Below, in pieces: positions 2,581-27,201 of a stretch of 27,304 nucleotides of DNA (position 1 is the first letter of the stretch; every line of letters starts with the position of its first letter). This DNA comes from Oligoflexus sp. (GTDB lineage Bacteria; Bdellovibrionota_B; Oligoflexia; Oligoflexales; Oligoflexaceae), in NCBI GenBank assembly GCA_041736305.1, contig JBGSTX010000053.1:1-27304 (forward strand). The letters run 5' to 3'. The notes beneath the pieces are model-generated. The model was not told the DNA's origin, did no database searches, and saw only the letters and a list, made by a program, of their open reading frames with translations. The position numbers and the translations under genes were made by a program.

Positions 2581-3444
2581 TTAAGTCTTCGGTGAATTCA
2601 GCTTTTCTCCCATGCGTACTGGTCGACTTGACCAAGCTTGGTCCATACGATAGCGTTTTGCCAAGGTCTCGTCAAAAGCAATAATCACCGTCGAACCTAG
2701 CATAAAGGTCCCGAGCTCATCACCTGGAACAAGAGCTGCAGAATGCTCGAGGGTAAAGCTCTGGGGTCCGTCCAGAGCCAATTTGTGGCGTCCTCGATTG
2801 CTTGCGAAATCTTCCAGAAAAGGCGTAGTCATCCGCCCCACGTTTAAGGCTCCGACCATCGCGAGATAAAGTGTCCCTTCGCCGGTTTCAAGGTCGAAGA
2901 CCAATCTTTCATTCCGCGTAAAGAGACGAGGGGTCCATCGGACTGAAGGCTTATTGACAGGCCAAAGTTCTCCGGGAAAATAACGCAAGTTGCGGAGAGT
3001 TCCACGGACGGGACTATGAACTCGATGATAGTTGTGTGGGGCTAGATATATTGTGGCTGAATAGGCCAAATGCACCGAAGATGGGGCCTTAGACCCAAAC
3101 ATTAGCTCTGAGAGTGAGTAGGTCAAGCCTTTTGCCTGCACAGCAGTATTATTGACTGCAGGCCCCGCTACACTCAGGATCCCGTCAGCCGGACTGCAGG
3201 GTTCGCTTTCTATGGGCCGCAGTCCATCCTTAAGCTTGCGAGTAAATAGGTCCTGGACTGAAGCATAGGCTTCGAGCTGGTGTTCGGCTTCGCTCATATC
3301 GATTCGAAAAGTCCGGGCAAAACTCGAACAAAGGAGCCTATTCAGGGGAGCCGGCAGTTTAATCTGCGACACCGACCCTGCAACGCTGCTGGCAATATTA
3401 AGGGGAACAATGCGCCCTATCCCGTCAAACACCTTCGATCGCAT
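2581..3444 (-). CDS. psd: Phosphatidylserine decarboxylase proenzyme
   Basis: FTRKLK, SPADG, YLAPHNYHRVHSP, RNER, VGALNVG and the LGST self-cleavage motif. ATG 3444 is preceded by AGGAG, so it is preferred over the TTG at 3477. Confidence 0.95.
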   Translation of the reverse strand: MRSKVFDGIGRIVPLNIASSVAGSVSQIKLPAPLNRLLCSSFARTFRIDMSEAEHQLEAYASVQDLFTRKLKDGLRPIESEPCSPADGILSVAGPAVNNTAVQAKGLTYSLSELMFGSKAPSSVHLAYSATIYLAPHNYHRVHSPVRGTLRNLRYFPGELWPVNKPSVRWTPRLFTRNERLVFDLETGEGTLYLAMVGALNVGRMTTPFLEDFASNRGRHKLALDGPQSFTLEHSAALVPGDELGTFMLGSTVIIAFDETLAKRYRMDQAWSSRPVRMGEKLNSPKT

Positions 3445-3593
3445 CGGCTTATCTCCTAAAGCAAGTCCAAGAGGCAATTTATCGACCTGGACCGTAATAC
3501 TCCAGCCATACCATAGGACGCGCCAGCGTCTGAGGCTTGGCTGGTGATATAGGGGCCACTGCTATCTCCCAGATCGGAGATACTCTTCAAAAT

Positions 3594-3622
3594 GGGTGCC
3601 GGTCTATTCCCGGCTGTCACCC
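3594..3622 (-). other. Bulged GC-rich hairpin at the 3' end of the omegaRNA (possible terminator or processing element)
   Basis: GGGT-GACA-GCCGG-GAATAGA-CCGGC-ACCC followed by ATTTTG. Confidence 0.5.
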
Positions 3623-3629
3623 GTAAAGG

Positions 3630-3885
3630 CGGCATTTCTGCCGTAGATTCTCTTCGTCAATGTTAGCCGGTGGTTTTTAGAGAAAGCACTGTCCCTACCC
3701 ATCAGGACTGTTTAGCCGTCTCTCGCAGAGCCTGGGACTAGAGAAGTATCCCAAGGTGCCTATATCATTCACCAGTAACGTAGCCCTGTTGCCAGGACTG
3801 AGACTAATCAACCAAGAGCTTAGAAATTTGCTTCCTCCTTTCCAAGCCCTACCCATACCCGTCAGGGTTGGGTGGGGTGATTGAC
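3630..3885 (-). ncRNA. HEARO / omegaRNA (IscB-type OMEGA guide RNA scaffold), orphan
   Basis: The minus strand has the family landmarks in order: GTCAATCACCCC, GGGCTTG, AAGCTC, GGTTGATTAG, CTACGTT, ATAGGCACCTTGGGATACTTCTCTAGTCCCAGGCTCTGCG, TAAACAG...AGTGC, AAAACC, AACATTGACGAAGAG, and a terminal CGGCA-GAAA-TGCCG hairpin. The helices pair. Confidence 0.85.
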
Positions 3886-3891
3886 CAGAAT

Positions 3892-5301
3892 TCAATGCAC
3901 TTCTAAACTTGCGCCTAAAGAAGACAAGCCATCCATACGCGAAATATTTTGGGCAAGGTAATCTTCGAACACAAGCTGTGCCTCCGCCGCCTGGGCCGCT
4001 CGACGTTCCACCTTGCTTTGACCACGGCGTTTCGGAAGGCTAGGCAAGAGGCCCAAGTGGGCATTCATAGGTTGAAAGTCGCCAAGACCGCCTCCCGTAA
4101 CGTAAGCCGCCAGCGCACCTAAGATGGTGCCTCGAGGTGGAAGGTTCCAGTCTTGTCCCGTGAGCCGAGTGCTGGCTAATCTACCGACCAAGAGGCCTAT
4201 AGCTGCGGATTCAACATAACCCTCCACGCCGGTAATCTGTCCAGCCAGATACACATGCGGTGCTTCTCTGAAAGAGAAATCAGCCTGAAGGACTTCAGGG
4301 CTCTTCAGATAGGTGTTGCGATGCACAGAGCCGTAGCGAAAAAATTCGACTTCAGCGAGCCCCGGTAGCATGGAAAAAATTCGCTTTTGCTCGGGCCATT
4401 TCATTTTGGTCTGAAAGCCGACCATCGAAACCATCGTTTCCTCGCGGTTTTCCATCCTCAGCTGAACCGCAGCCCAAGGTCGCTGACCGGTTCGAGGATC
4501 GATAAGCCCCATAGGTTTCATAGGCCCGAAACGCAGGGTTTCACGGCCCCTTTCAATCATAACTTCGATCGGCAGGCAGGACTCAAAGTAGCGAACGTCT
4601 TCAAATTCATGAAGAGGCATTTTTTCCGCCGCAATTACTGCATCGATAAAACGTTCGTACTCCTCCTTATTAAGGGGAACGTTGAGATAATCACCAGGCC
4701 CTTCATCATAACGACTTGCTTTGAAGACCTGTTTAAGATCTATCGAATCAGCTGCCAAAATAGGCGCAATCGCATCATAAAAGTGCAGGCTCTTCTGGCC
4801 ACGACTTAAACCCTGGAGGCTTGTGCTCAGGCCAGCAGATGTTAAAGGTCCACTCGAAACGATCCAAATTTCGCCTGCTTCAGCAGCAGCAAGCTCAGTT
4901 GGCAACTCGATAATTTCTTCAGAAATCTTCTCGAATCCAGGATAAGCACTCAGCTTAGCTTCAATCAGCCGCGAGAAGGCCAGACGTTCAACGGCTAGTG
5001 CTTGTCCAGCCGGGACAGAGCTCGCCTGAGCTGCTTGTATGATCAGTGAGTCAAGAGCTAGCATCTCCTGTTTCAAGAGGCCAGGAGCTGAGTCCGGATT
5101 TACAGACTTGAGAGAGTTGGAGCAAACTAGCTCCGCTAAATCCCCTGTTTGGTGAGCTGCGGTCATTTTTTGCGGCCGCATTTCATAGAGACGGACGCGG
5201 AGTCCACTTCGCAAAGCTTGCCAAGCAGCTTCGCAGCCAGCTAAACCACCTCCCACAATATTTACCAAAGTTCCGCGCTTCATCGCCTCTTCCTTTGTCA
5301 T
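3892..5301 (-). CDS. trmFO: Methylenetetrahydrofolate-tRNA-(uracil-5-)-methyltransferase TrmFO
   Basis: GGGLAGCEAA FAD motif, ELVCSNS, FYDAIAP, FESCLPIE, FGPMKP, HRNTY and AGQITGVEGYVESAA. Confidence 0.97.
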   Translation of the reverse strand: MTKEEAMKRGTLVNIVGGGLAGCEAAWQALRSGLRVRLYEMRPQKMTAAHQTGDLAELVCSNSLKSVNPDSAPGLLKQEMLALDSLIIQAAQASSVPAGQALAVERLAFSRLIEAKLSAYPGFEKISEEIIELPTELAAAEAGEIWIVSSGPLTSAGLSTSLQGLSRGQKSLHFYDAIAPILAADSIDLKQVFKASRYDEGPGDYLNVPLNKEEYERFIDAVIAAEKMPLHEFEDVRYFESCLPIEVMIERGRETLRFGPMKPMGLIDPRTGQRPWAAVQLRMENREETMVSMVGFQTKMKWPEQKRIFSMLPGLAEVEFFRYGSVHRNTYLKSPEVLQADFSFREAPHVYLAGQITGVEGYVESAAIGLLVGRLASTRLTGQDWNLPPRGTILGALAAYVTGGGLGDFQPMNAHLGLLPSLPKRRGQSKVERRAAQAAEAQLVFEDYLAQNISRMDGLSSLGASLEVH

Positions 5302-5333: not shown

Positions 5334-6086
5334 TTAGCCAGCGAAAGCCACTATTTTCGCAAATTCATGGGGATCTAAGGATGCACCCCCGACAAGGGCT
5401 CCGTCGACATCCGGCTGCTGCATCAAGCCTTTAATCAGTGAAGACTTCACGCTGCCTCCATAGAGGATCTTGCAACTCTCAGCCTTGGCACCAATTTTTT
5501 GCTTCAAAATGCCCCGAATGAAAGCATGAGCATCTTGAGCTTGCTGATCACTAGCGGTAAGCCCGGTACCAATCGCCCATACGGGTTCGTAGGCGAGTAC
5601 ATACTGAGCCGAAGAAGGGAGGGCCTCAAGAACCGGCCTAAGCTGCTTGCTCAGTACGGCCTCAGTTTGGGCGGCTTCGCGCTCAGCTCGCGTCTCGCCA
5701 ATGCAGATGATAGGAGTGATGCCATTTTCACAGGCGACCTTAGCTTTGGCTGCAACACTCACATCGGTTTCATTGAAATACTGGCGACGCTCGCTGTGCC
5801 CAATCAGCGTCCAGTTGATCCCTAAATCCTTGAGCATTGCCCAGGATATTTCACCGGTGAATGCACCTTCGGCCTTCTCGTGCATATTTTGTGCAGCAAT
5901 AATGAAACCGTCCGCACTGGCTAGCTCTCGGGCCTGCGGTAGAAAAGGGGCAGGAACCGCAAGCAGGACTTCCGCCCGATGGGGGCCTGCAGCTTTTAAT
6001 GAACGCGAAAGCTCCTGAAAATATCCCGGTACGTTCGAATTCAGTAGATTCATTTTCCAGTTGCCAGCAATCAGAGGTGTTCGCAT
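5334..6086 (-). CDS. tpiA: Triosephosphate isomerase
   Basis: AGNWKMN, IGHSERR, AYEPVWAIGTG, YGGSV and LVGGASL. Confidence 0.99.
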   Translation of the reverse strand: MRTPLIAGNWKMNLLNSNVPGYFQELSRSLKAAGPHRAEVLLAVPAPFLPQARELASADGFIIAAQNMHEKAEGAFTGEISWAMLKDLGINWTLIGHSERRQYFNETDVSVAAKAKVACENGITPIICIGETRAEREAAQTEAVLSKQLRPVLEALPSSAQYVLAYEPVWAIGTGLTASDQQAQDAHAFIRGILKQKIGAKAESCKILYGGSVKSSLIKGLMQQPDVDGALVGGASLDPHEFAKIVAFAG

Positions 6087-6103: not shown

Positions 6104-7291
6104 CTATTTCAATAGAACTTTGACACCAGGCAGAATCTTGCCTTCGAGAAATTCCAGCGAAGCACCACCGCCGGTCGATATGTGATCTATTTTTTCCGAG
6201 ACGCCTGCCTTATTAGCTGCTGCTACGCTATCGCCGCCGCCGATGACTGTGTAACCCGACGCCTTTGCCATAGCTTCTGCTATCCGGATCGAGCCCCTGG
6301 CAAATGGATCCCACTCAAAGACTCCCATAGGTCCATTCCAAAGGACCGTCTTCGAAAGAGCTATGATGTCTGTGAAACGTTTCCCAGTCCTAAGACCAAT
6401 ATCTAGCCCCATCAGGCCGCGGGGAATGGTTTTGCTGGGGACTTCAACCGGCGTCGCCGTAGCTTCAAAGCGATCGGCACAGATGTGATCCTCGGGAAGA
6501 ATGATCTCGACCTTCCGTGCTTCGGCGTTGCGATAAATCGATGCAACAAGATCCATTTTATCGGCTTCAACCCGCGAATCGCCAACGTCAATGCCCTGAT
6601 ATTTAAGGAAGGTGTAAGCCATAGCGCCCCCTATCAAGAGGTAGTTCGCTTGGTTCATCAGATTGAGGACTACCCCAATCTTATCGGAAACTTTGGAACC
6701 ACCCATAATCACCGTAAACGGTGCCTGAGGCTTCTTCTGCAGCGTAGAAAGCACTGAGATTTCCTGCTCGACAAGAAAGCCAGCAGCTCTCTTTTCAGGC
6801 GGGAAGAGTTCTGCGACCGCGACGACAGAAGCGTGAGCACGATGCAAGGTTCCAAACGCGTCATTCACGTAGCAATCAAAGCCTTGAGCCAGTTTGCTGG
6901 CAAAGTCTAGATCATTTTTGGTCTCACCTGGATGAAATCGGAGATTTTCAAAAAGTATGATCTGATTTCGATCGAGTTGATTGAGAACATGTTCAGCAGG
7001 TTCTTCGGTATAATCTTTGACGAAGGCGACGTCGCAGCCAAGAAGCTCCGCCAGTCGCGCTCCAACCGGCTCGAGGGAAAACTCAGGCATGACTTCACCA
7101 TCTGGCCGCCCTAGGTGAGACATGAGAGCTATTTTATGGGTTCGCTCAAGCAGGTATTTGAGAGTCGGGATAGCTGCGGTAATCCGCGTCTCGTCGGTGA
7201 TCTTGCCTTTTTTAATGGGAACGTTGAGGTCTAATCGAACTAGCACCTTTTTGTTGTTAATATCAAGATCGGCGAGTTTTCTTAGTTCCAT
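6104..7291 (-). CDS. pgk: Phosphoglycerate kinase
   Basis: RLDLNVP, SHLGRP, ENLRF, NDAFGTLHRAHAS, WNGPMGVFE, GGGDS and STGGGASLEFLEG. Confidence 0.99.
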   Translation of the reverse strand: MELRKLADLDINNKKVLVRLDLNVPIKKGKITDETRITAAIPTLKYLLERTHKIALMSHLGRPDGEVMPEFSLEPVGARLAELLGCDVAFVKDYTEEPAEHVLNQLDRNQIILFENLRFHPGETKNDLDFASKLAQGFDCYVNDAFGTLHRAHASVVAVAELFPPEKRAAGFLVEQEISVLSTLQKKPQAPFTVIMGGSKVSDKIGVVLNLMNQANYLLIGGAMAYTFLKYQGIDVGDSRVEADKMDLVASIYRNAEARKVEIILPEDHICADRFEATATPVEVPSKTIPRGLMGLDIGLRTGKRFTDIIALSKTVLWNGPMGVFEWDPFARGSIRIAEAMAKASGYTVIGGGDSVAAANKAGVSEKIDHISTGGGASLEFLEGKILPGVKVLLK

Positions 7292-13706: not shown

Positions 13707-15833
13707 ATGAAAATGACAAAGCACCTTGCTATCGGACTTGCTATCACTTTTGGATTGGTCGCGTGCAGCAGGGATTCCCAAAAATCCGAGGCGCCCCAGG
13801 CGATTGATATAGGCAGATCATTAGGTAGTACCGCGGCCAACACTGACGCAAATACTGATCTTAGTGAAAAATTCACCATCATGTCAGATGCAGAAAGACA
13901 GAACTTAGAAAATGAAATCAGTACTTTAAAGGGCAATATTCTACAGAAAAAAACTGATATCCAAGACCTGCAAAAACAAATAGTCGACCAACCCGAGAAT
14001 GAGTCGAAGCTGCAAACCAGCTACAAAGAACTCGTTAGCTCGCTTGACGACTTAATAAAGCAATATTCTGAGAGAAGAACAATTCTCGTTGAGGATGATA
14101 TTCAGAAGGACCTTTATCAATTACTCCAGGATGAAGGACTTGCATCACTCGATCAGTTGCCCCAAACTTTTACTAAGGTAAAGGCGAATGTAAACCAAGA
14201 GATAGAGCAAGCTAAAGGCCAAGAAGGTCCGCTCCAAGCGCAAATGTCACAGGCGGAGACACAGTTCAAGTATTCCGTGTCTAACCTACAAAATCTTGAG
14301 ATGACGCTCAGAACAAGGGCTGACGGTCTTAAAGCGCAAGGCTCCTTAGCTCCAGCTCAAGAGGAAGAGCTAATTGCTATCCAAAGTTATCTAGAAGCCG
14401 CGAGCAAAAGGAGTGAGCTCGAGGGCAAAGCGATGGCTATGGACCAGGATATCAAACAGTTAAAGGATGCCATTTATCTATCTCAGCATGAAATGGCGGG
14501 AATACAAGCTCAGTTCATTGAAGCCAAGATGGCCCTTGAAAAAATAGAAGCATCTGCGGAAGATGCTCGGGCGGAAGCACAGGAAAAAGTCTCGAAGCTT
14601 GAAAGTGAACTTGCCAGGCTTGACCTGAACCAAGAACTTGATATGAGCAAACTTCAGAAGAGCCAAGATATATTTGATCAAACTCGCCTGGATTATTCCA
14701 CGGCTGTCAAAAACTTAGAAGAAGCCAGAGCAAAACTCTCACCGCTGACACCAGAAGTGACAGCGGATGCTTCGTTCGATCAAATGAAGGAAGCACAAGA
14801 CAGCCTCGATGCTCTGCATGAACAGGAGGCCAAATGGTATAGCGAGATCAATGGTTTAAAAGTAAATTTGGATAAAATTGAAGTATTAGAAACTTACTAC
14901 CAAGCACGCTTCACCGGAGGATCTGTAGAACAAACCCCGACTACAGAGCAGCAGACCCCAGTTGTACAGCAGACTCCAGCTACAGAGCAGCAAACCCCAG
15001 CGGTGCAGCAAACCCCATCTGCAGAGCAAAAAAGTCCTAGTACTAAACCGCAAGAGCCCACTGTAGAGCAAAAGGCGCCTAAAACTCAGCAAGTCCCTCA
15101 AACCCAAGAAACACCTTTGCCGCAGCAAACAGCTCCGGTAAACCAGCAAAAACCAACCCCAGAAAAACAAACCACAACATCTGAAGTGCAGGCACCGGTA
15201 ACTCAGCAGCAAAAGCCAACCACCGAGCAGCAGGCACCAGTAGCCCAACAGCAGCCAGCCACCGAGCAGCAGGCACCAGTAGCCCAACAGCAAAAGCCAA
15301 CCACCGAGCAGCAGGCACCAGTAGCCCAACAGCAAAAGCCAACCACCGAGCAGCAGGCACCAGTAGCCCAACAGCAGCCAGCTACCGAGCAGCAGGCACC
15401 AGTAGCCCAACAGCAAAAGCCAACCACCGAGCAGCAGGCACCAGTAGCCCAACAGCAGCCAGCCACTGAGCAGCAGGCACCAGTAGCCCAACAGCAGCCA
15501 GCCACTGAGCAACAGGCACCAGTAGCCCAACAGCAGCCAGCCACTGAGCAGCAGGCACCAGTAGCCCAACAGCAGCCAGCCACTGAGCAACAGGCACCAG
15601 TAGCTCAGCAGCAGCCAGTTGGATCACCTGTTCAGAAATCGCCTGGAACTGATGAGGAAACCCCCTCAGAAAGTGCTGAGCCGCCCGTACAAGATGAAGT
15701 AATAATCGTGGAGCAAGAATCTACCAAAAAAGACGAAACCATTCAGATTCAAGAGGACAGCACAGCTCCAGTGCAAACGACAGCTGCCGCTCCCGCTCAA
15801 TCGTCTCAGCAGATCGGAATAATGTCACTATGA
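13707..15833 (+). CDS. Lipoprotein with long coiled coil and Q/P/A/T-rich repeat tail
   Basis: AGGAG RBS and lipobox LVAC. Heptad-like E/Q/L/K-rich region at about aa 60-400, then a low-complexity repeat C-terminus. Confidence 0.85.
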   Translation: MKMTKHLAIGLAITFGLVACSRDSQKSEAPQAIDIGRSLGSTAANTDANTDLSEKFTIMSDAERQNLENEISTLKGNILQKKTDIQDLQKQIVDQPENESKLQTSYKELVSSLDDLIKQYSERRTILVEDDIQKDLYQLLQDEGLASLDQLPQTFTKVKANVNQEIEQAKGQEGPLQAQMSQAETQFKYSVSNLQNLEMTLRTRADGLKAQGSLAPAQEEELIAIQSYLEAASKRSELEGKAMAMDQDIKQLKDAIYLSQHEMAGIQAQFIEAKMALEKIEASAEDARAEAQEKVSKLESELARLDLNQELDMSKLQKSQDIFDQTRLDYSTAVKNLEEARAKLSPLTPEVTADASFDQMKEAQDSLDALHEQEAKWYSEINGLKVNLDKIEVLETYYQARFTGGSVEQTPTTEQQTPVVQQTPATEQQTPAVQQTPSAEQKSPSTKPQEPTVEQKAPKTQQVPQTQETPLPQQTAPVNQQKPTPEKQTTTSEVQAPVTQQQKPTTEQQAPVAQQQPATEQQAPVAQQQKPTTEQQAPVAQQQKPTTEQQAPVAQQQPATEQQAPVAQQQKPTTEQQAPVAQQQPATEQQAPVAQQQPATEQQAPVAQQQPATEQQAPVAQQQPATEQQAPVAQQQPVGSPVQKSPGTDEETPSESAEPPVQDEVIIVEQESTKKDETIQIQEDSTAPVQTTAAAPAQSSQQIGIMSL
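15204..15605 (+). repeat. In-frame coding tandem repeat, 10 units (4 x 42 bp QQQKPTTEQQAPVA and 6 x 39 bp QQQPATEQQAPVA)
   Basis: Counted directly, in the order K,P,K,K,P,K,P,P,P,P. Degenerate 39-bp copies lie at about 14928-15030. Confidence 0.95.
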
Positions 15834-26094: not shown

Positions 26095-27201
26095 GTGAAT
26101 CTAAGCTTAAAAAAACTATATTTACCCATTATTATTGGAATAATTCCAATTCTTCTCGCGCCGCGCTCCCTCCGCGCGGACGATACATTACCGACAAACG
26201 ACGAATGGCAATCTAGCCGACCTATGCTTGAAAAAGCTCGCCCTCTGGAACCCCATCGTCAGGTACCCTTCCTTAAAGCCGTCCAGGCTGCAATTGTCAG
26301 GACCTTTTCTAATTTAGATCACGCCAAAGAAATGGCCAAGATCCAGCAAGAACAAGCAGCCCCTCTGGCCTCTCGTGGTAAGGGCATCTTGGTGCCTCTT
26401 TCCATGTCTTCGACTACCGAGAAAGAAACTCAAATAAGTAAGTCGCTGACTAAGACTCTAAAAACCTTCGCGCAAAAGGAGGGAAGTACAGACCTTCTTC
26501 CGGACTCCTATCGACTTGGTTTGAACTTTGGCTTTGGCGGACCTTCCCATACTGGACTTAAAGCCTCACCTAAACCAAATTATAGACTGATAGTAACAAA
26601 TATAGAGCCTGACTCTAAGTCCATGAAACTCGCGTCGCTCAATTCTAATGACTATGAACTGCTGCCTTATGCTGGCAAAGCTAACCTAGAGTATGATGTT
26701 GGCCTCGTCTATGAAGACTCGAGTGCACCTATCTATCGAACTCAAATTAGGCCAACCAACTCATCTCTATGGGATACAATTTATGAGTCCCCTAGCCTTC
26801 GCTTCAACGGTCGCATCACTCCAAAAGGGTTTTTAACAGATGGCAAGCTTTCGCCCGTCCAAGTTCTCACCCTTGAACAAGTCGATGGCTACTATGCCTA
26901 TGAAGCTGAGATGCAGTCGAGCATAGCTCCAAAGACAGCCGTACATCGCCTCCGCGTGCCGATTTTAGGCGGTGCGAAGTACGGAGAGGACTGGAATCAG
27001 GACTTTAAAAAGGTCAAGTCGAGTATTGAAAGAATATACGCGAGTGGACCTTTCAGTCTCAACCTAGAGCGCTATGAGTTAGAGAACAGGTATCAAACGG
27101 GCATCATCTACAAAGCTTCGACGACACAAGTCGAGATTTACACTTTTATTCCCGACTCCTCATTACTTGAGAGTCCGGAGTTCTCCGGCTTAACTACATA
27201 A
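26095..27201 (+). CDS. Exported hypothetical protein (beta-rich C-terminal half)
   Basis: Signal-peptide-like N-terminus (KKLYLPIIIGIIPILLAPRSLRA-DD) and GGAG RBS. No family recognised. Confidence 0.75.
   Translation: MNLSLKKLYLPIIIGIIPILLAPRSLRADDTLPTNDEWQSSRPMLEKARPLEPHRQVPFLKAVQAAIVRTFSNLDHAKEMAKIQQEQAAPLASRGKGILVPLSMSSTTEKETQISKSLTKTLKTFAQKEGSTDLLPDSYRLGLNFGFGGPSHTGLKASPKPNYRLIVTNIEPDSKSMKLASLNSNDYELLPYAGKANLEYDVGLVYEDSSAPIYRTQIRPTNSSLWDTIYESPSLRFNGRITPKGFLTDGKLSPVQVLTLEQVDGYYAYEAEMQSSIAPKTAVHRLRVPILGGAKYGEDWNQDFKKVKSSIERIYASGPFSLNLERYELENRYQTGIIYKASTTQVEIYTFIPDSSLLESPEFSGLTT

What the first reader, a model, noticed from the sequence alone, without database searches (positions are those of the whole stretch)
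3630..3885. Orphan, apparently intact IscB-type omegaRNA (HEARO) with no nuclease, embedded in a housekeeping gene run
Seen: the minus strand carries the ordered HEARO/omegaRNA landmarks and the helices pair. These include GTCAATCA/TGGTTGAT, GCTTGGAAA/TTTCTAAGC, AGTCCTG-GCAA-CAGGGCT, GTTACTGGT/ACCGGCTAAC, CTTGGGA/TCCCAGG, a candidate pseudoknot TTCTCT/AGAGAA and CGGCA-GAAA-TGCCG. GTC/GAC appears where I recall GCC/GGC in the consensus, which would be a compensatory change. Established: omegaRNAs normally lie directly upstream of iscB in IS200/IS605 elements, and stand-alone trans-acting copies have been reported. Seen: only about 185 nt separate the scaffold from psd, and the window has no iscB, isrB or tnpA ORF. 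Inference: this is a trans-acting guide for a distant or novel effector, or a domesticated structured RNA maintained in the pgk-tpiA-trmFO-psd run.
Basis: partly seen in the sequence, partly recalled or inferred. Interest (0 to 1): 0.9.

Follow-up and report, generated by a model that had tools for sequence, protein, structure and literature searches.

The report
Gene-less mobile element carrying IscB guide RNA
The sequence is a real, intact IscB guide-RNA (omegaRNA/HEARO) scaffold carried by a 403-bp protein-less jumping element that landed recently between two housekeeping genes, while the matching IscB nuclease genes sit elsewhere in the same genome, which is a known kind of arrangement.

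Summary
The scaffold is the front of a 403-bp element (3483-3885) that is an iscB-deleted derivative of an ISC (IS200/IS605-family) transposon. It keeps the scaffold-side end, a junction hairpin, and the far end with its subterminal hairpin. It sits at an N|ATAA target with no duplication, 6 nt after the trmFO stop and 38 nt before the psd start. A contig from a strain about 95-97% identical joins the flanks precisely without the element. Eleven of 11 same-genus relatives and 20 of 20 named relatives lack it there. So it is a recent insertion, not a domesticated RNA. The nuclease is missing only locally: the genome has two intact IscB genes, each behind a scaffold 86-88% identical. It also has at least nine iscB-less minis and more than 20 scaffold ends. 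The likely role (inferred) is a guide used in trans by IscB to re-cut the vacated site after excision. Standalone omegaRNAs of this kind are already published. It is a new member of a known kind, and interest is low to moderate.

The parts
3483..3885 (-). Complete 403-bp iscB-less mini-element, an ISC / IS200-IS605-family, PATE-like element. Its termini are 5'-GT...CG-3', and its position has a 1-nt ambiguity because a G flanks both ends.
   Evidence: Homology to other genomic copies starts exactly at 3885 and ends at about 3478-3483. A contig in run X2 skips 3484-3897 with 11 other letters between, a net 403 nt missing.
3643..3885 (-). HEARO / IscB omegaRNA scaffold as matched by Rfam RF02033.
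   Evidence: 125 bits, E 8.4e-26, full model. Covariation supports the helices and both pseudoknots.
3630..3643 (-). 3'-terminal hairpin of the scaffold (CGGCA-GAAA-TGCCG), beyond the Rfam model.
   Evidence: A hairpin is present at the same place, with changed letters, in the IscB-linked and subfamily-B copies. It is an inverted repeat. Meers et al. note that RF02033 lacks downstream elements.
3886..3901 (-). Putative 16-nt guide. It is the flank 5' of the scaffold and overlaps the trmFO stop codon (3892-3894).
   Evidence: This is inferred from published IscB architecture, in which the guide lies immediately outside the transposon end. Every copy has a different flank here. The only exact genomic match is this locus.
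3588..3619 (-). Deletion-junction segment with the hairpin GCCGG-GAATAGA-CCGGC (3598-3614) and a short T-run. It replaces the iscB ORF.
   Evidence: It is absent from the full elements C219 and C254. It is present in minis of both scaffold subfamilies in G000, G004 and G009. It scores as terminator-like in the B minis C371 and C342 but not in the window copy. The DNA fold gives z -3.1.
3563..3582 (-). Hairpin TATCTCC-GATCTG-GGAGATA, the element that follows the iscB stop codon in full-length copies.
   Evidence: It aligns to C254 4723-4776, just after the iscB stop. The same hairpin follows iscB in G004:C107 and G008:C100.
3502..3544 (-). Subterminal imperfect hairpin of the far end, 19 nt from the terminus. 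It is the presumed TnpA recognition structure; in Meers' naming the far end is the LE.
   Evidence: The DNA fold gives -13 to -13.7 kcal/mol, z -2.2 and -3.0 on the two strands. The sequence block is conserved in 8 far ends. Subterminal hairpins are described for ISC/IS605 in Kapitonov 2016.
3478..3482 (-). Target motif ATAAA abutting the far end. It is the insertion target and the presumed IscB TAM.
   Evidence: Eight A-type far ends are followed by ATAAA (4), TTAAA (3) or CTAAT (1). Seven B-type ends are all followed by ATGAA. The motif is retained in the empty site of X2. It matches the N|ATGA / ATAA targets of ISC elements.
3892..5301 (-). trmFO (GIDA-family), the upstream host gene. Its stop codon lies 6 nt before the element.
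   Evidence: Pfam GIDA at 7.8e-86; ORF listing.
2581..3444 (-). psd (phosphatidylserine decarboxylase), the downstream host gene. The conserved ATG is at 3444, an AGGAG lies at 3453-3457, and the start is 38 nt after the element end.
   Evidence: Pfam PS_Dcarbxylase at 3.1e-48. The N-terminus aligns from residue 1 to relatives.

Best explanation
Window 3483-3885 (minus strand) is a 403-bp, protein-less, non-autonomous derivative of an ISC (IscB-encoding IS200/IS605-family) transposon. Functionally it is a PATE-like 'standalone omegaRNA' element.

It arose from a roughly 1.6-kb full element by loss of the whole iscB ORF. It keeps (i) the scaffold-side end with a complete omegaRNA scaffold, (ii) a junction hairpin, and (iii) the far end with its subterminal hairpin.

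It was inserted, without target duplication, 5' of an ATAA(A) motif in the short trmFO-psd spacer, in the same orientation as the operon. The insertion is recent on the scale of strain divergence. All of this is shown.

The rest is inferred. A Y1 TnpA encoded elsewhere moves the element. Read-through transcription from trmFO makes an RNA whose 5' 16 nt (3901-3886) act as the guide. One of the genome's two IscB proteins binds this RNA in trans. After TnpA excision the re-joined donor site (guide match followed by ATAAA) is cut by IscB and repaired from the sister copy, so the mini-element is kept ('restorative homing').

I put about 0.9 on the identity and origin, and about 0.55 on real in-trans use by IscB.
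For: Identity:
- The Rfam HEARO match is 125 bits over the full model.
- 82 of 82 predicted pairs are standard in the window copy. Against the IscB-linked copies, 14 and 13 pairs changed but stayed paired, and 1 each broke.
- Both pseudoknots covary across 22 scaffolds.

Multi-copy and mobile:
- The genome has 14 HEARO matches, 8 of them over the cut-off.
- At least 20 scaffold 5' ends all carry different upstream flanks.
- Homology begins exactly at 3885.
- A second copy (C194, 96.8% over 282 nt) carries the same deletion junction in other flanks.
- Nine iscB-less copies carry the junction.

Deletion derivative:
- 3885-3620 aligns to the scaffold of C219/C254, and 3587-3478 aligns to the post-iscB tail of C254. 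Both end in TAAA.

Insertion:
- The X2 contig (7,671 nt) covers 3000-3483 with 25 differences and 3898-4400 with 16 differences. It skips 414 nt with 11 letters between, a net 403 nt missing with no duplication.
- The spacer is -20 to +56 nt in 11 of 11 same-genus relatives, against 447 nt here.
- 0 of 20 named relatives has a HEARO near trmFO.

Family features:
- The apparent ends 5'-GTCA...CGATAA-3' and the ATAA/ATGA targets match Kapitonov 2016.
- The subterminal hairpin is present.

Effector in trans:
- Two intact IscB genes of 377 and 394 aa carry RRXRR and HNH domains and match solved OgeuIscB at E 1e-49 with the nuclease motifs aligned.
- The far end of C254 abuts TTAAA, the same target class.
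- Published passages say that mobilised standalone omegaRNAs co-occur with effector loci and work in trans, and that PATEs often encode omegaRNAs.
- The mini architecture with a terminator-like junction hairpin is shared by two scaffold subfamilies and three species.
Against: - There is no expression evidence for this locus. All runs laid are contigs, and the only RNA-library contigs (X11) are 92-96% relatives of the scaffold and could be DNA carry-over.
- No sigma-70-like promoter is predicted on the minus strand in 3300-4100, so guide transcription depends on an assumed read-through.
- TnpA is seen only as fragments (open frames of 98, 71 and 62 aa, two of them on contig ends, plus one with 5 stops), so current mobility in this genome is unproven.
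- Compatibility of this scaffold (86-88% identical) with either IscB is untested.
- At least one related mini (C284) has lost most of its scaffold, and two copies are truncated (C216, C161). Scaffold retention is therefore not universal.
- The structure used was derived from the same sequences.
- The high identity among subfamily-A copies (95-98%) means intactness may only reflect youth.
Confidence: 0.8

Rival explanations
1. It is the same mini-element, but the omegaRNA is passive baggage. The scaffold persists only because the copy is young and because its first tens of bases double as the transposon end. No IscB uses it, and it is on its way to decay.
For: - Subfamily-A copies are 95-98% identical, so there has been little time for decay.
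- Decayed relatives exist: C216 is truncated after 136 nt, C161 lacks the scaffold, and C284 has an internally deleted scaffold.
- There is no expression evidence for this locus.
- No own promoter is predicted.
Against: - Nine of the iscB-less copies that carry the junction keep the scaffold or its assembled part.
- The mini architecture, with a terminator-like hairpin right after the scaffold, recurs in two diverged scaffold subfamilies and three species. That is hard to explain if only the ends mattered.
- Differences from the IscB-linked scaffolds are overwhelmingly pair-preserving.
- In-trans function of standalone omegaRNAs is reported in print.
Confidence: 0.33
2. It is a domesticated structured RNA, or a regulatory insert maintained in the pgk-tpiA-trmFO-psd operon. 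For example, it could be an attenuator or processing site controlling psd.
For: - It is co-oriented with the operon, 6 nt after the trmFO stop and 38 nt before the psd start.
- It contains a hairpin followed by a T-run between the two genes.
Against: - It is absent from this site in 11 of 11 same-genus relatives and in 20 of 20 named relatives.
- A strain about 95-97% identical has the empty site.
- The same element occurs at many unrelated sites.
- The hairpin is not called as a terminator in this copy.
Confidence: 0.03
3. It is a trans-acting guide directed at another genomic or foreign target, or it serves a novel, non-IscB effector.
For: - The scaffold is intact and has no adjacent nuclease.
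- The biological role of standalone omegaRNAs is stated to be unknown.
Against: - The 16-nt guide has an exact match only at its own locus. The 39 hits with up to 3 mismatches agree with my own estimate of about 38 expected by chance. The only 12-nt exact match elsewhere (C187) lacks the ATAAA motif.
- Cognate IscB genes are present, so no new effector is needed.
- tblastn finds no further IscB/IsrB-like gene.
Confidence: 0.04

Closest known systems
Standalone (effector-less) omegaRNA loci of OMEGA/IscB systems. Altae-Tran et al. 2021, seen here only as summarised in the introduction of PMC10691335.
   Same: - A mobilised omegaRNA with neither effector nor transposase next to it, in a genome that also has effector-bearing loci.
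- The guide position lies just outside the transposon end.
   Different: - The host here is an Oligoflexus-like bacterium.
- The copies form a distinct mini-element lineage with a junction hairpin, terminator-like in subfamily B, that the full elements lack.
- In-trans activity is not tested here.
PATE-like protein-less IS200/IS605 derivatives. Meers et al. 2023, bioRxiv 10.1101/2023.03.14.532601 (passages); Fig. 4 legend of Kapitonov 2016.
   Same: - Short and protein-less, and it keeps both transposon ends with subterminal hairpins.
- It must be moved by TnpA in trans.
- Meers et al. say PATEs often encode omegaRNAs that need a nuclease in trans.
   Different: - Meers' statement concerns TnpB-type omegaRNAs in Geobacillus. 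Here the RNA is the IscB/HEARO type.
- This element is larger (403 bp) because the 259-nt scaffold is retained.
ISC transposons of Cyanobacteria and Proteobacteria (ISC1-1_MA type), Kapitonov et al. 2016, PMC4810608 (passages).
   Same: - The apparent termini are 5'-GTCA...CGATGA-3', with true termini 5'-GT...CG-3'.
- Insertion is at N|ATGA (also ATCA/ATAA) with no target duplication.
- The far end is shared with an antisense TnpB element; here that is C83.
   Different: - Those elements encode IscB, and this one has lost it.
- The target here is ATAA(A) for subfamily A and ATGA(A) for subfamily B.
HEARO RNA, Rfam RF02033. Weinberg et al. 2009; the paper is not held, so I know it only from citing passages.
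   Same: The sequence and secondary structure match over the full model.
   Different: The family name implies an adjacent HNH ORF, and this copy has none.

Membership tests
HEARO / IscB omegaRNA (Rfam RF02033) | Covariance-model score at or above the curated gathering score, over the full model | tested here: met
   125.0 bits against 83, model 1-211/211, E 8.4e-26. It scores between the two IscB-linked copies of the genome, at 134.8 and 116.4 bits.
HEARO / IscB omegaRNA (Rfam RF02033) | Conserved helices and the two pseudoknots, kept by compensatory change | tested here: met
   82 of 82 pairs are standard in the window copy. The middle pair of PK1 takes 4 pair types, and PK2 has 3 pairs with changes on both sides. 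0 of 500 shuffles reach the covariation score.
HEARO / IscB omegaRNA (Rfam RF02033) | Lies directly upstream of an iscB (HNH/RuvC) ORF | tested here: not met
   No RRXRR or IscB hit lies on contig C59, and the next gene is psd. The feature is met by the paralogous copies on C219 and C254. This describes the usual context rather than the RNA itself.
HEARO / IscB omegaRNA (Rfam RF02033) | Binds IscB and guides DNA cleavage | not testable with these tools
   This needs a pull-down or an interference assay.
Non-autonomous ISC / IS200-IS605 element (PATE-like) | Several copies with sharp common boundaries in different flanks | tested here: met
   The common start is at 3885 in at least 12 A-type copies, each with its own flank. 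The same far end and deletion junction are present in C194.
Non-autonomous ISC / IS200-IS605 element (PATE-like) | Precise insertion without target-site duplication, shown by an empty site | tested here: met
   The X2 contig joins 3483 to 3898 with 11 letters between, a net 403 nt missing and no duplicated bases.
Non-autonomous ISC / IS200-IS605 element (PATE-like) | Insertion next to a specific 4-5-nt target (N|ATGA / ATAA class) with 5'-GT...CG-3' termini | tested here: met
   A-type far ends are followed by ATAAA (4), TTAAA (3) or CTAAT (1) of 8, and B-type by ATGAA in 7 of 7. The termini were read.
Non-autonomous ISC / IS200-IS605 element (PATE-like) | Subterminal imperfect hairpins at the ends | tested here: met
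   The far-end hairpin at 3502-3544 lies 19 nt from the terminus (z -2.2/-3.0). The near-end hairpin lies within the first 60 nt (z -3.0). TnpA binding itself was not tested.
Non-autonomous ISC / IS200-IS605 element (PATE-like) | A Y1 (TnpA) transposase available in trans | tested here: inconclusive
   PF01797 gives 4 matches. Three have short open frames (two of them on contig ends) and one carries 5 stops, in an assembly that is 92.7% complete with 392 contigs.
Non-autonomous ISC / IS200-IS605 element (PATE-like) | No protein-coding capacity | tested here: met
   The only ORF of 60 aa or more inside it (3695-3895, 66 aa, TTG start) overlaps the scaffold and has no Pfam match.
Domesticated / host-maintained small RNA | Conserved at the same syntenic site in relatives | tested here: not met
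   It is absent at the site in 11 of 11 same-genus junctions, 0 of 20 named relatives have a HEARO hit there, and a close strain has the empty site.

The most novel reading that the evidence does not exclude
The iscB-less minis are not sporadic deletion relics. They are a self-sustaining 'guide-only' lineage that parasitises both TnpA and IscB.

They have acquired a hairpin plus T-run right after the scaffold, terminator-like in subfamily B, which the full elements lack. This architecture is shared by two diverged scaffold subfamilies and three species. In this genome the minis outnumber IscB genes by at least 9 to 2.

If so, one nuclease here serves a dispersed library of genome-encoded guides, which would be a natural intermediate between one-guide transposon nucleases and multi-guide CRISPR-like systems. 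Insertions such as this one could also modulate host operons.
Probability: 0.3. Interest if true: 0.55.

Novelty: new member of a known kind. Interest (0 to 1): 0.3.

Why it matters
The finding shows that an 'orphan omegaRNA in a housekeeping operon' need not imply a new effector or a domesticated RNA. Here it is a textbook-type non-autonomous ISC element whose nuclease lives elsewhere in the genome.

It is a clean natural example, with a filled site, an exact empty site, the target motif and a cognate IscB all available. That makes it a convenient test bed for in-trans guide use and restorative homing outside the few model hosts.

The ratio of many guides to few nucleases, and the mini-specific terminator-like hairpin, are modest new details worth a look by people who work on OMEGA systems.

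Tried and rejected
- **Distant target for the guide.** The 16-nt flank matches exactly only at its own locus. There were 39 hits with up to 3 mismatches, against about 38 expected by my own arithmetic. One 12-nt exact match (C187) has no ATAAA. Rejected.
- **Orientation bias of copies behind co-directional host ORFs**, as expected if guides rely on read-through. A crude ORF rule over 20 sites gave 10 co-oriented, 5 opposite and 5 undetermined. No conclusion.
- **Expression.** All four runs laid are Logan contigs. X11 (an RNA library) has two 225-nt contigs on 3663-3885 with 8 and 17 differences. These are relatives of the scaffold, are not this locus, and may be DNA carry-over. X3 covers only 13 of 30 bins. 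There is no verdict on transcription.
- **An own promoter or terminator.** No minus-strand promoter-like site lies in 3300-4100. The only minus-strand terminator-like call lies inside the scaffold.
- **Further IscB fragments at contig ends.** tblastn finds only C219 and C254. The HNH hits on C66, C109, C166 and C268 do not match IscB.
- **Exact empty-site alignment with GTDB relatives.** They are too diverged (trmFO about 65-73% DNA identity), so they gave spacer lengths only.
- **Papers.** The Weinberg 2010 Genome Biology paper does not mention HEARO (wrong paper). Weinberg 2009 and Altae-Tran 2021 are not held under the ids tried, so what I say of them rests on citing passages. Supplements were not consulted; Kapitonov's Figs S2-S6 and Meers' Extended Data Fig. 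2e may show closely similar cases.
- **Tools.** One paper search failed on a term format and was re-sent.
Full report
**1. The observation**

The Rfam 15 scan of the whole 27,304-nt window returns a single match. It is HEARO (RF02033) at 3643-3885 on the minus strand, 125.0 bits against a gathering score of 83, E 8.4e-26, covering model positions 1-211 of 211. The family rings in 0 of 14 control genomes.

In an alifold consensus of four closely related full-length copies, all 82 predicted pairs are standard pairs in the window copy. That structure was derived from these sequences, which favours it.

I aligned 22 scaffolds, 8 from this genome and 14 from relatives, and counted three named helices.
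- The 3-bp pseudoknot has an invariant G-C and C-G around a middle pair that is AU in 14, CG in 4, UA in 2 (window and C254), GC in 1 and unpaired in 1.
- The loop-tail pairing (TTCTCT/AGAGAA here) has three pairs with changes on both sides: UA10/AU9/CG3, CG19/UA3 and CG19/UA3.
- The covariation score is 0.326, against 0.139 in shuffles (0 of 500 reach it) and at most 0.125 when partners are slid by 1-3 columns.

A further hairpin (3630-3643) follows the Rfam model. It recurs with changed letters in the other copies.

**2. Surroundings**

On the minus strand the order is pgk (6104-7291), tpiA (5334-6086), a GIDA-family trmFO (3892-5301), the RNA, psd, and a pyruvate kinase (1071-2507). The rest of the window is housekeeping too: glutathione synthetase, ValRS- and IleRS-type synthetases, an aminotransferase and MgtE.

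The psd protein aligns to relatives from residue 1 if it starts at the ATG at 3444, which is preceded by AGGAG. The TTG at 3477 that heads the longest ORF is therefore not the start.

No RRXRR, Y1_Tnp or IscB-like hit lies on this contig.

**3. It is one copy of a repeat family with sharp ends**

The window is contig C59 of an assembly with 392 contigs, rated 92.7% complete. That genome has 14 HEARO matches, 8 of them over the cut-off. A motif scan finds more than 20 scaffold 5' ends, every one with a different upstream flank.

blastn shows that similarity to other copies begins exactly at 3885 and runs to about 3478. Most near-identical copies (95-98%) sit on contig ends, as expected for an assembler breaking on repeats.

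Two scaffold subfamilies exist.
- Subfamily A includes the window, C194, C310, C88, C19, C214, C265, C26, C2, C295 and the truncated C216.
- Subfamily B includes C342, C371, C178, C179 and relatives.

**4. It is an iscB-deleted derivative**

The genome has exactly two iscB genes.
- C219 26742-25609 encodes 377 aa.
- C254 3540-4724 encodes 394 aa.

Each lies about 48 nt after a HEARO match. Each has RRXRR and HNH domains, and they are 77.6% identical to each other.

The C254 protein matches solved OgeuIscB chains (7utn, 7xht) at E about 1e-49, with the GxDxG, ExN, HNH and H..D stretches aligned. That these stretches are the catalytic motifs is my recollection and comes from no call.

Window 3885-3620 aligns at 86% to both IscB-linked scaffolds, up to about 27 nt before their start codons. 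Window 3587-3478 is collinear with the 119 nt that follow the iscB stop on C254, and both end in TAAA.

Between these two blocks lie 32 nt (3619-3588) with a GC hairpin and a short T-run, which the two full elements lack.

So the window element is a full element of about 1.6 kb minus the whole iscB ORF. The same junction occurs at C194 in different flanks. It also occurs, with B-type scaffolds, at C342, C371, C178, C179, C68, C115 and C273.

That makes nine iscB-less copies against two IscB-linked ones. One further copy has most of its scaffold deleted (C284), and two are truncated (C216, C161). The remaining ends are cut by contig ends and cannot be classified.

**5. Ends and target**

Eight A-type far ends share a conserved block and are followed by ATAAA (4), TTAAA (3) or CTAAT (1). 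Seven B-type far ends are all followed by ATGAA.

The far end folds as DNA into an imperfect hairpin at 3502-3544, 19 nt from the terminus (z -2.2 and -3.0 on the two strands).

These features match the passages I read in Kapitonov et al. 2016 (PMC4810608).
- ISC elements of Cyanobacteria and Proteobacteria have apparent termini 5'-GTCA...CGATGA-3' and true termini 5'-GT...CG-3'.
- They insert at N|ATGA (also ATCA/ATAA) without duplication.
- They have subterminal hairpins for a Y1 transposase acting in trans.
- They share one end with TnpB elements encoded on the opposite strand.

Here one A-type far end (C83) does belong to a tnpB gene in the opposite orientation.

Meers et al. [quoted passage not shown] In their naming, 3885 is the RE and 3483 is the LE next to the target motif.

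**6. The empty site**

Among 20 public runs that share words with 3300-4100, I laid four on 3000-4400.

In run X2 a single 7,671-nt contig covers 3000-3483 with 25 differences and 3898-4400 with 16 differences. That is about 95% and 97% identity. It skips 3484-3897 (414 nt) with 11 other letters between.

Read on the minus strand, those 11 letters plus the G at 3483 replace the 12 window bases 3897-3886 and share their last five bases. The relative therefore reads ...TTCTG directly followed by ATAA...

The net difference is 403 nt with no duplicated bases. The position is ambiguous by one base because a G flanks both ends.

The same run has at least 6 different flanks at 3885 and 4 at 3473-3478, and a contig spanning the mini junction. 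So the mini family is present in that strain at other sites while this site is empty.

More distant relatives agree.
- trmFO and psd are adjacent with spacers of -20 (five genomes), 13, 18, 26, 31, 54 and 56 nt in 11 of 11 same-genus genomes for which I retrieved the junction. G009 and G011 gave none. The spacer here is 447 nt.
- An Rfam scan of trmFO with 1.5-kb flanks in the 20 closest named relatives finds no HEARO. These are Oligoflexus/Oligoflexaceae and allies, with TrmFO 60-74% identical.
- HEARO itself occurs in 8 of 13 same-genus genomes, 1 of 8 genomes from other genera of the family, and 0 of 19 genomes from other families of the order.

The element is thus a lineage-restricted mobile repeat, and this copy is a recent insertion.

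**7. How it most likely works**

Shown:
- The scaffold is intact.
- Both transposon ends are intact.
- The insertion is precise and target-specific.
- The mini form exists in several copies.
- Two apparently intact IscB genes lie in the same genome, and their own elements abut the same target class (TTAAA for C254).

Inferred from the published model:
- A Y1 TnpA moves the element in trans.
- The 16 nt 5' of the scaffold (3901-3886, spanning the trmFO stop) serve as the guide.
- IscB loaded in trans with this RNA cuts the re-joined donor site (guide match followed by ATAAA) after excision.
- Recombination with the sister copy then restores the element.

No minus-strand promoter-like site is predicted in 3300-4100, so the guide would have to come from trmFO read-through. 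This fits the co-orientation and the 6-nt distance from the stop codon, but it is not shown.

Altae-Tran et al. 2023 (PMC10691335, introduction passage) state that mobilised standalone omegaRNAs lacking an effector occur in genomes with effector loci. They state that these were shown to work in trans, and that their role is unknown. Meers et al. say that PATEs often encode omegaRNAs needing a nuclease in trans.

In support of real use:
- Differences from the IscB-linked scaffolds are pair-preserving. Against C219, 36 differences give 11 unpaired sites, 14 pairs kept and 1 broken. Against C254, 34 differences give 13, 13 and 1.
- A 93%-identical scaffold is IscB-linked in relative G004.
- The junction hairpin is found only in minis, in G000, G004 and G009. 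The following hairpin sits after the iscB stop in full elements.
- In the B minis C371 and C342 the junction hairpin scores as terminator-like, with 5 GC pairs and a T-run. That would give a discrete guide RNA.

Against real use:
- There is no expression evidence.
- Only tnpA fragments are found.
- Compatibility with either IscB is untested.
- The copies are young.
- Some relatives have lost the scaffold.

I put about 0.9 on identity and origin, and about 0.55 on in-trans use.

**8. Rivals**

- Passive baggage on a young PATE: 0.33.
- Domesticated or regulatory RNA of the operon: 0.03. This is contradicted by the empty site and by absence in relatives.
- A guide for another target or a novel effector: 0.04. 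The guide matches only its own locus beyond chance, and no further IscB/IsrB-like gene is found.

**9. Comparison and novelty**

The RNA is a member of RF02033 by score and structure. The one contextual feature not met, an adjacent HNH ORF, is explained by the deletion.

The element meets the tested features of a non-autonomous ISC/IS200-IS605 element. Availability of TnpA is inconclusive.

The kind, a standalone omegaRNA or PATE with omegaRNA, is in print. I did not find this particular mini architecture or host group described in the passages I read. However, I could not read Altae-Tran 2021, Weinberg 2009 or any supplements, so I claim no more than 'new member of a known kind'.

**10. Verdict**

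The 'orphan' is orphaned only locally, is mobile and recent, and is not domesticated. Interest is 0.3.

Noticed in passing
window 3886-3897 (minus strand), compared with the X2 contig: The 12 bases just 5' of the element (the guide region, including the last trmFO codon and its stop) differ from the close strain at 5 of 12 positions. The flanks differ at 41 of 987. The five bases nearest the target motif are identical. The strain ends trmFO on a different codon and stop. This could be relaxed constraint at a gene end, or change linked to the insertion or to targeting.
   Followed up: no
G000:C219:25400-25609 (L015/L021): The IscB element on C219 has no recognisable far end after the iscB stop. 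A nucleotidyltransferase-like ORF starts about 75 nt later, and its IscB is 17 aa shorter than the C254 one. It may be an immobilised copy.
   Followed up: partly
G000:C83:10681-11843: A tnpB gene (372-aa open frame) lies next to an A-type far end in the orientation opposite to ISC elements. ISC and TnpB elements therefore appear to share that end, as Kapitonov 2016 described. The genome has 7 TnpB-type hits over the cut-off.
   Followed up: partly
G000:C284:17450-17800, C161:300-450 and C216:1309-1444: These are degenerate relatives. C284 keeps the scaffold start and the tail but lacks most of the scaffold. C161 has only the tail. C216 has the first 136 nt of the scaffold followed by unrelated sequence.
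   Followed up: partly
window 3663-3885, run X11: A sediment metatranscriptome holds two 225-nt contigs, 92-96% identical to the scaffold, that stop at its first base (3885). This hints that related omegaRNAs are abundant in an RNA library, but DNA carry-over is not excluded and it is not this locus.
   Followed up: no
L029, L030, L032, L034 and L047 (relatives G002, G006, G008, G007, G004): In 5 of 11 same-genus relatives the trmFO stop and the psd start overlap by 20 nt, which suggests translational coupling. The window's lineage had a short spacer that offered an ATAA target.
   Followed up: no
window 13707-15833 (+) and 26095-27201 (+): Two long ORFs (708 aa and 368 aa) have no Pfam match at E <= 1e-5, among otherwise well-annotated housekeeping genes.
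   Followed up: no
G000 compared with relatives: HEARO matches outnumber RRXRR (IscB) matches in G000 (14 vs 2), G004 (8 vs 4) and G009 (3 vs 1), but not in G002 or G006 (1 vs 1). Effector-less scaffolds are therefore a feature of some species of the genus only.
   Followed up: partly
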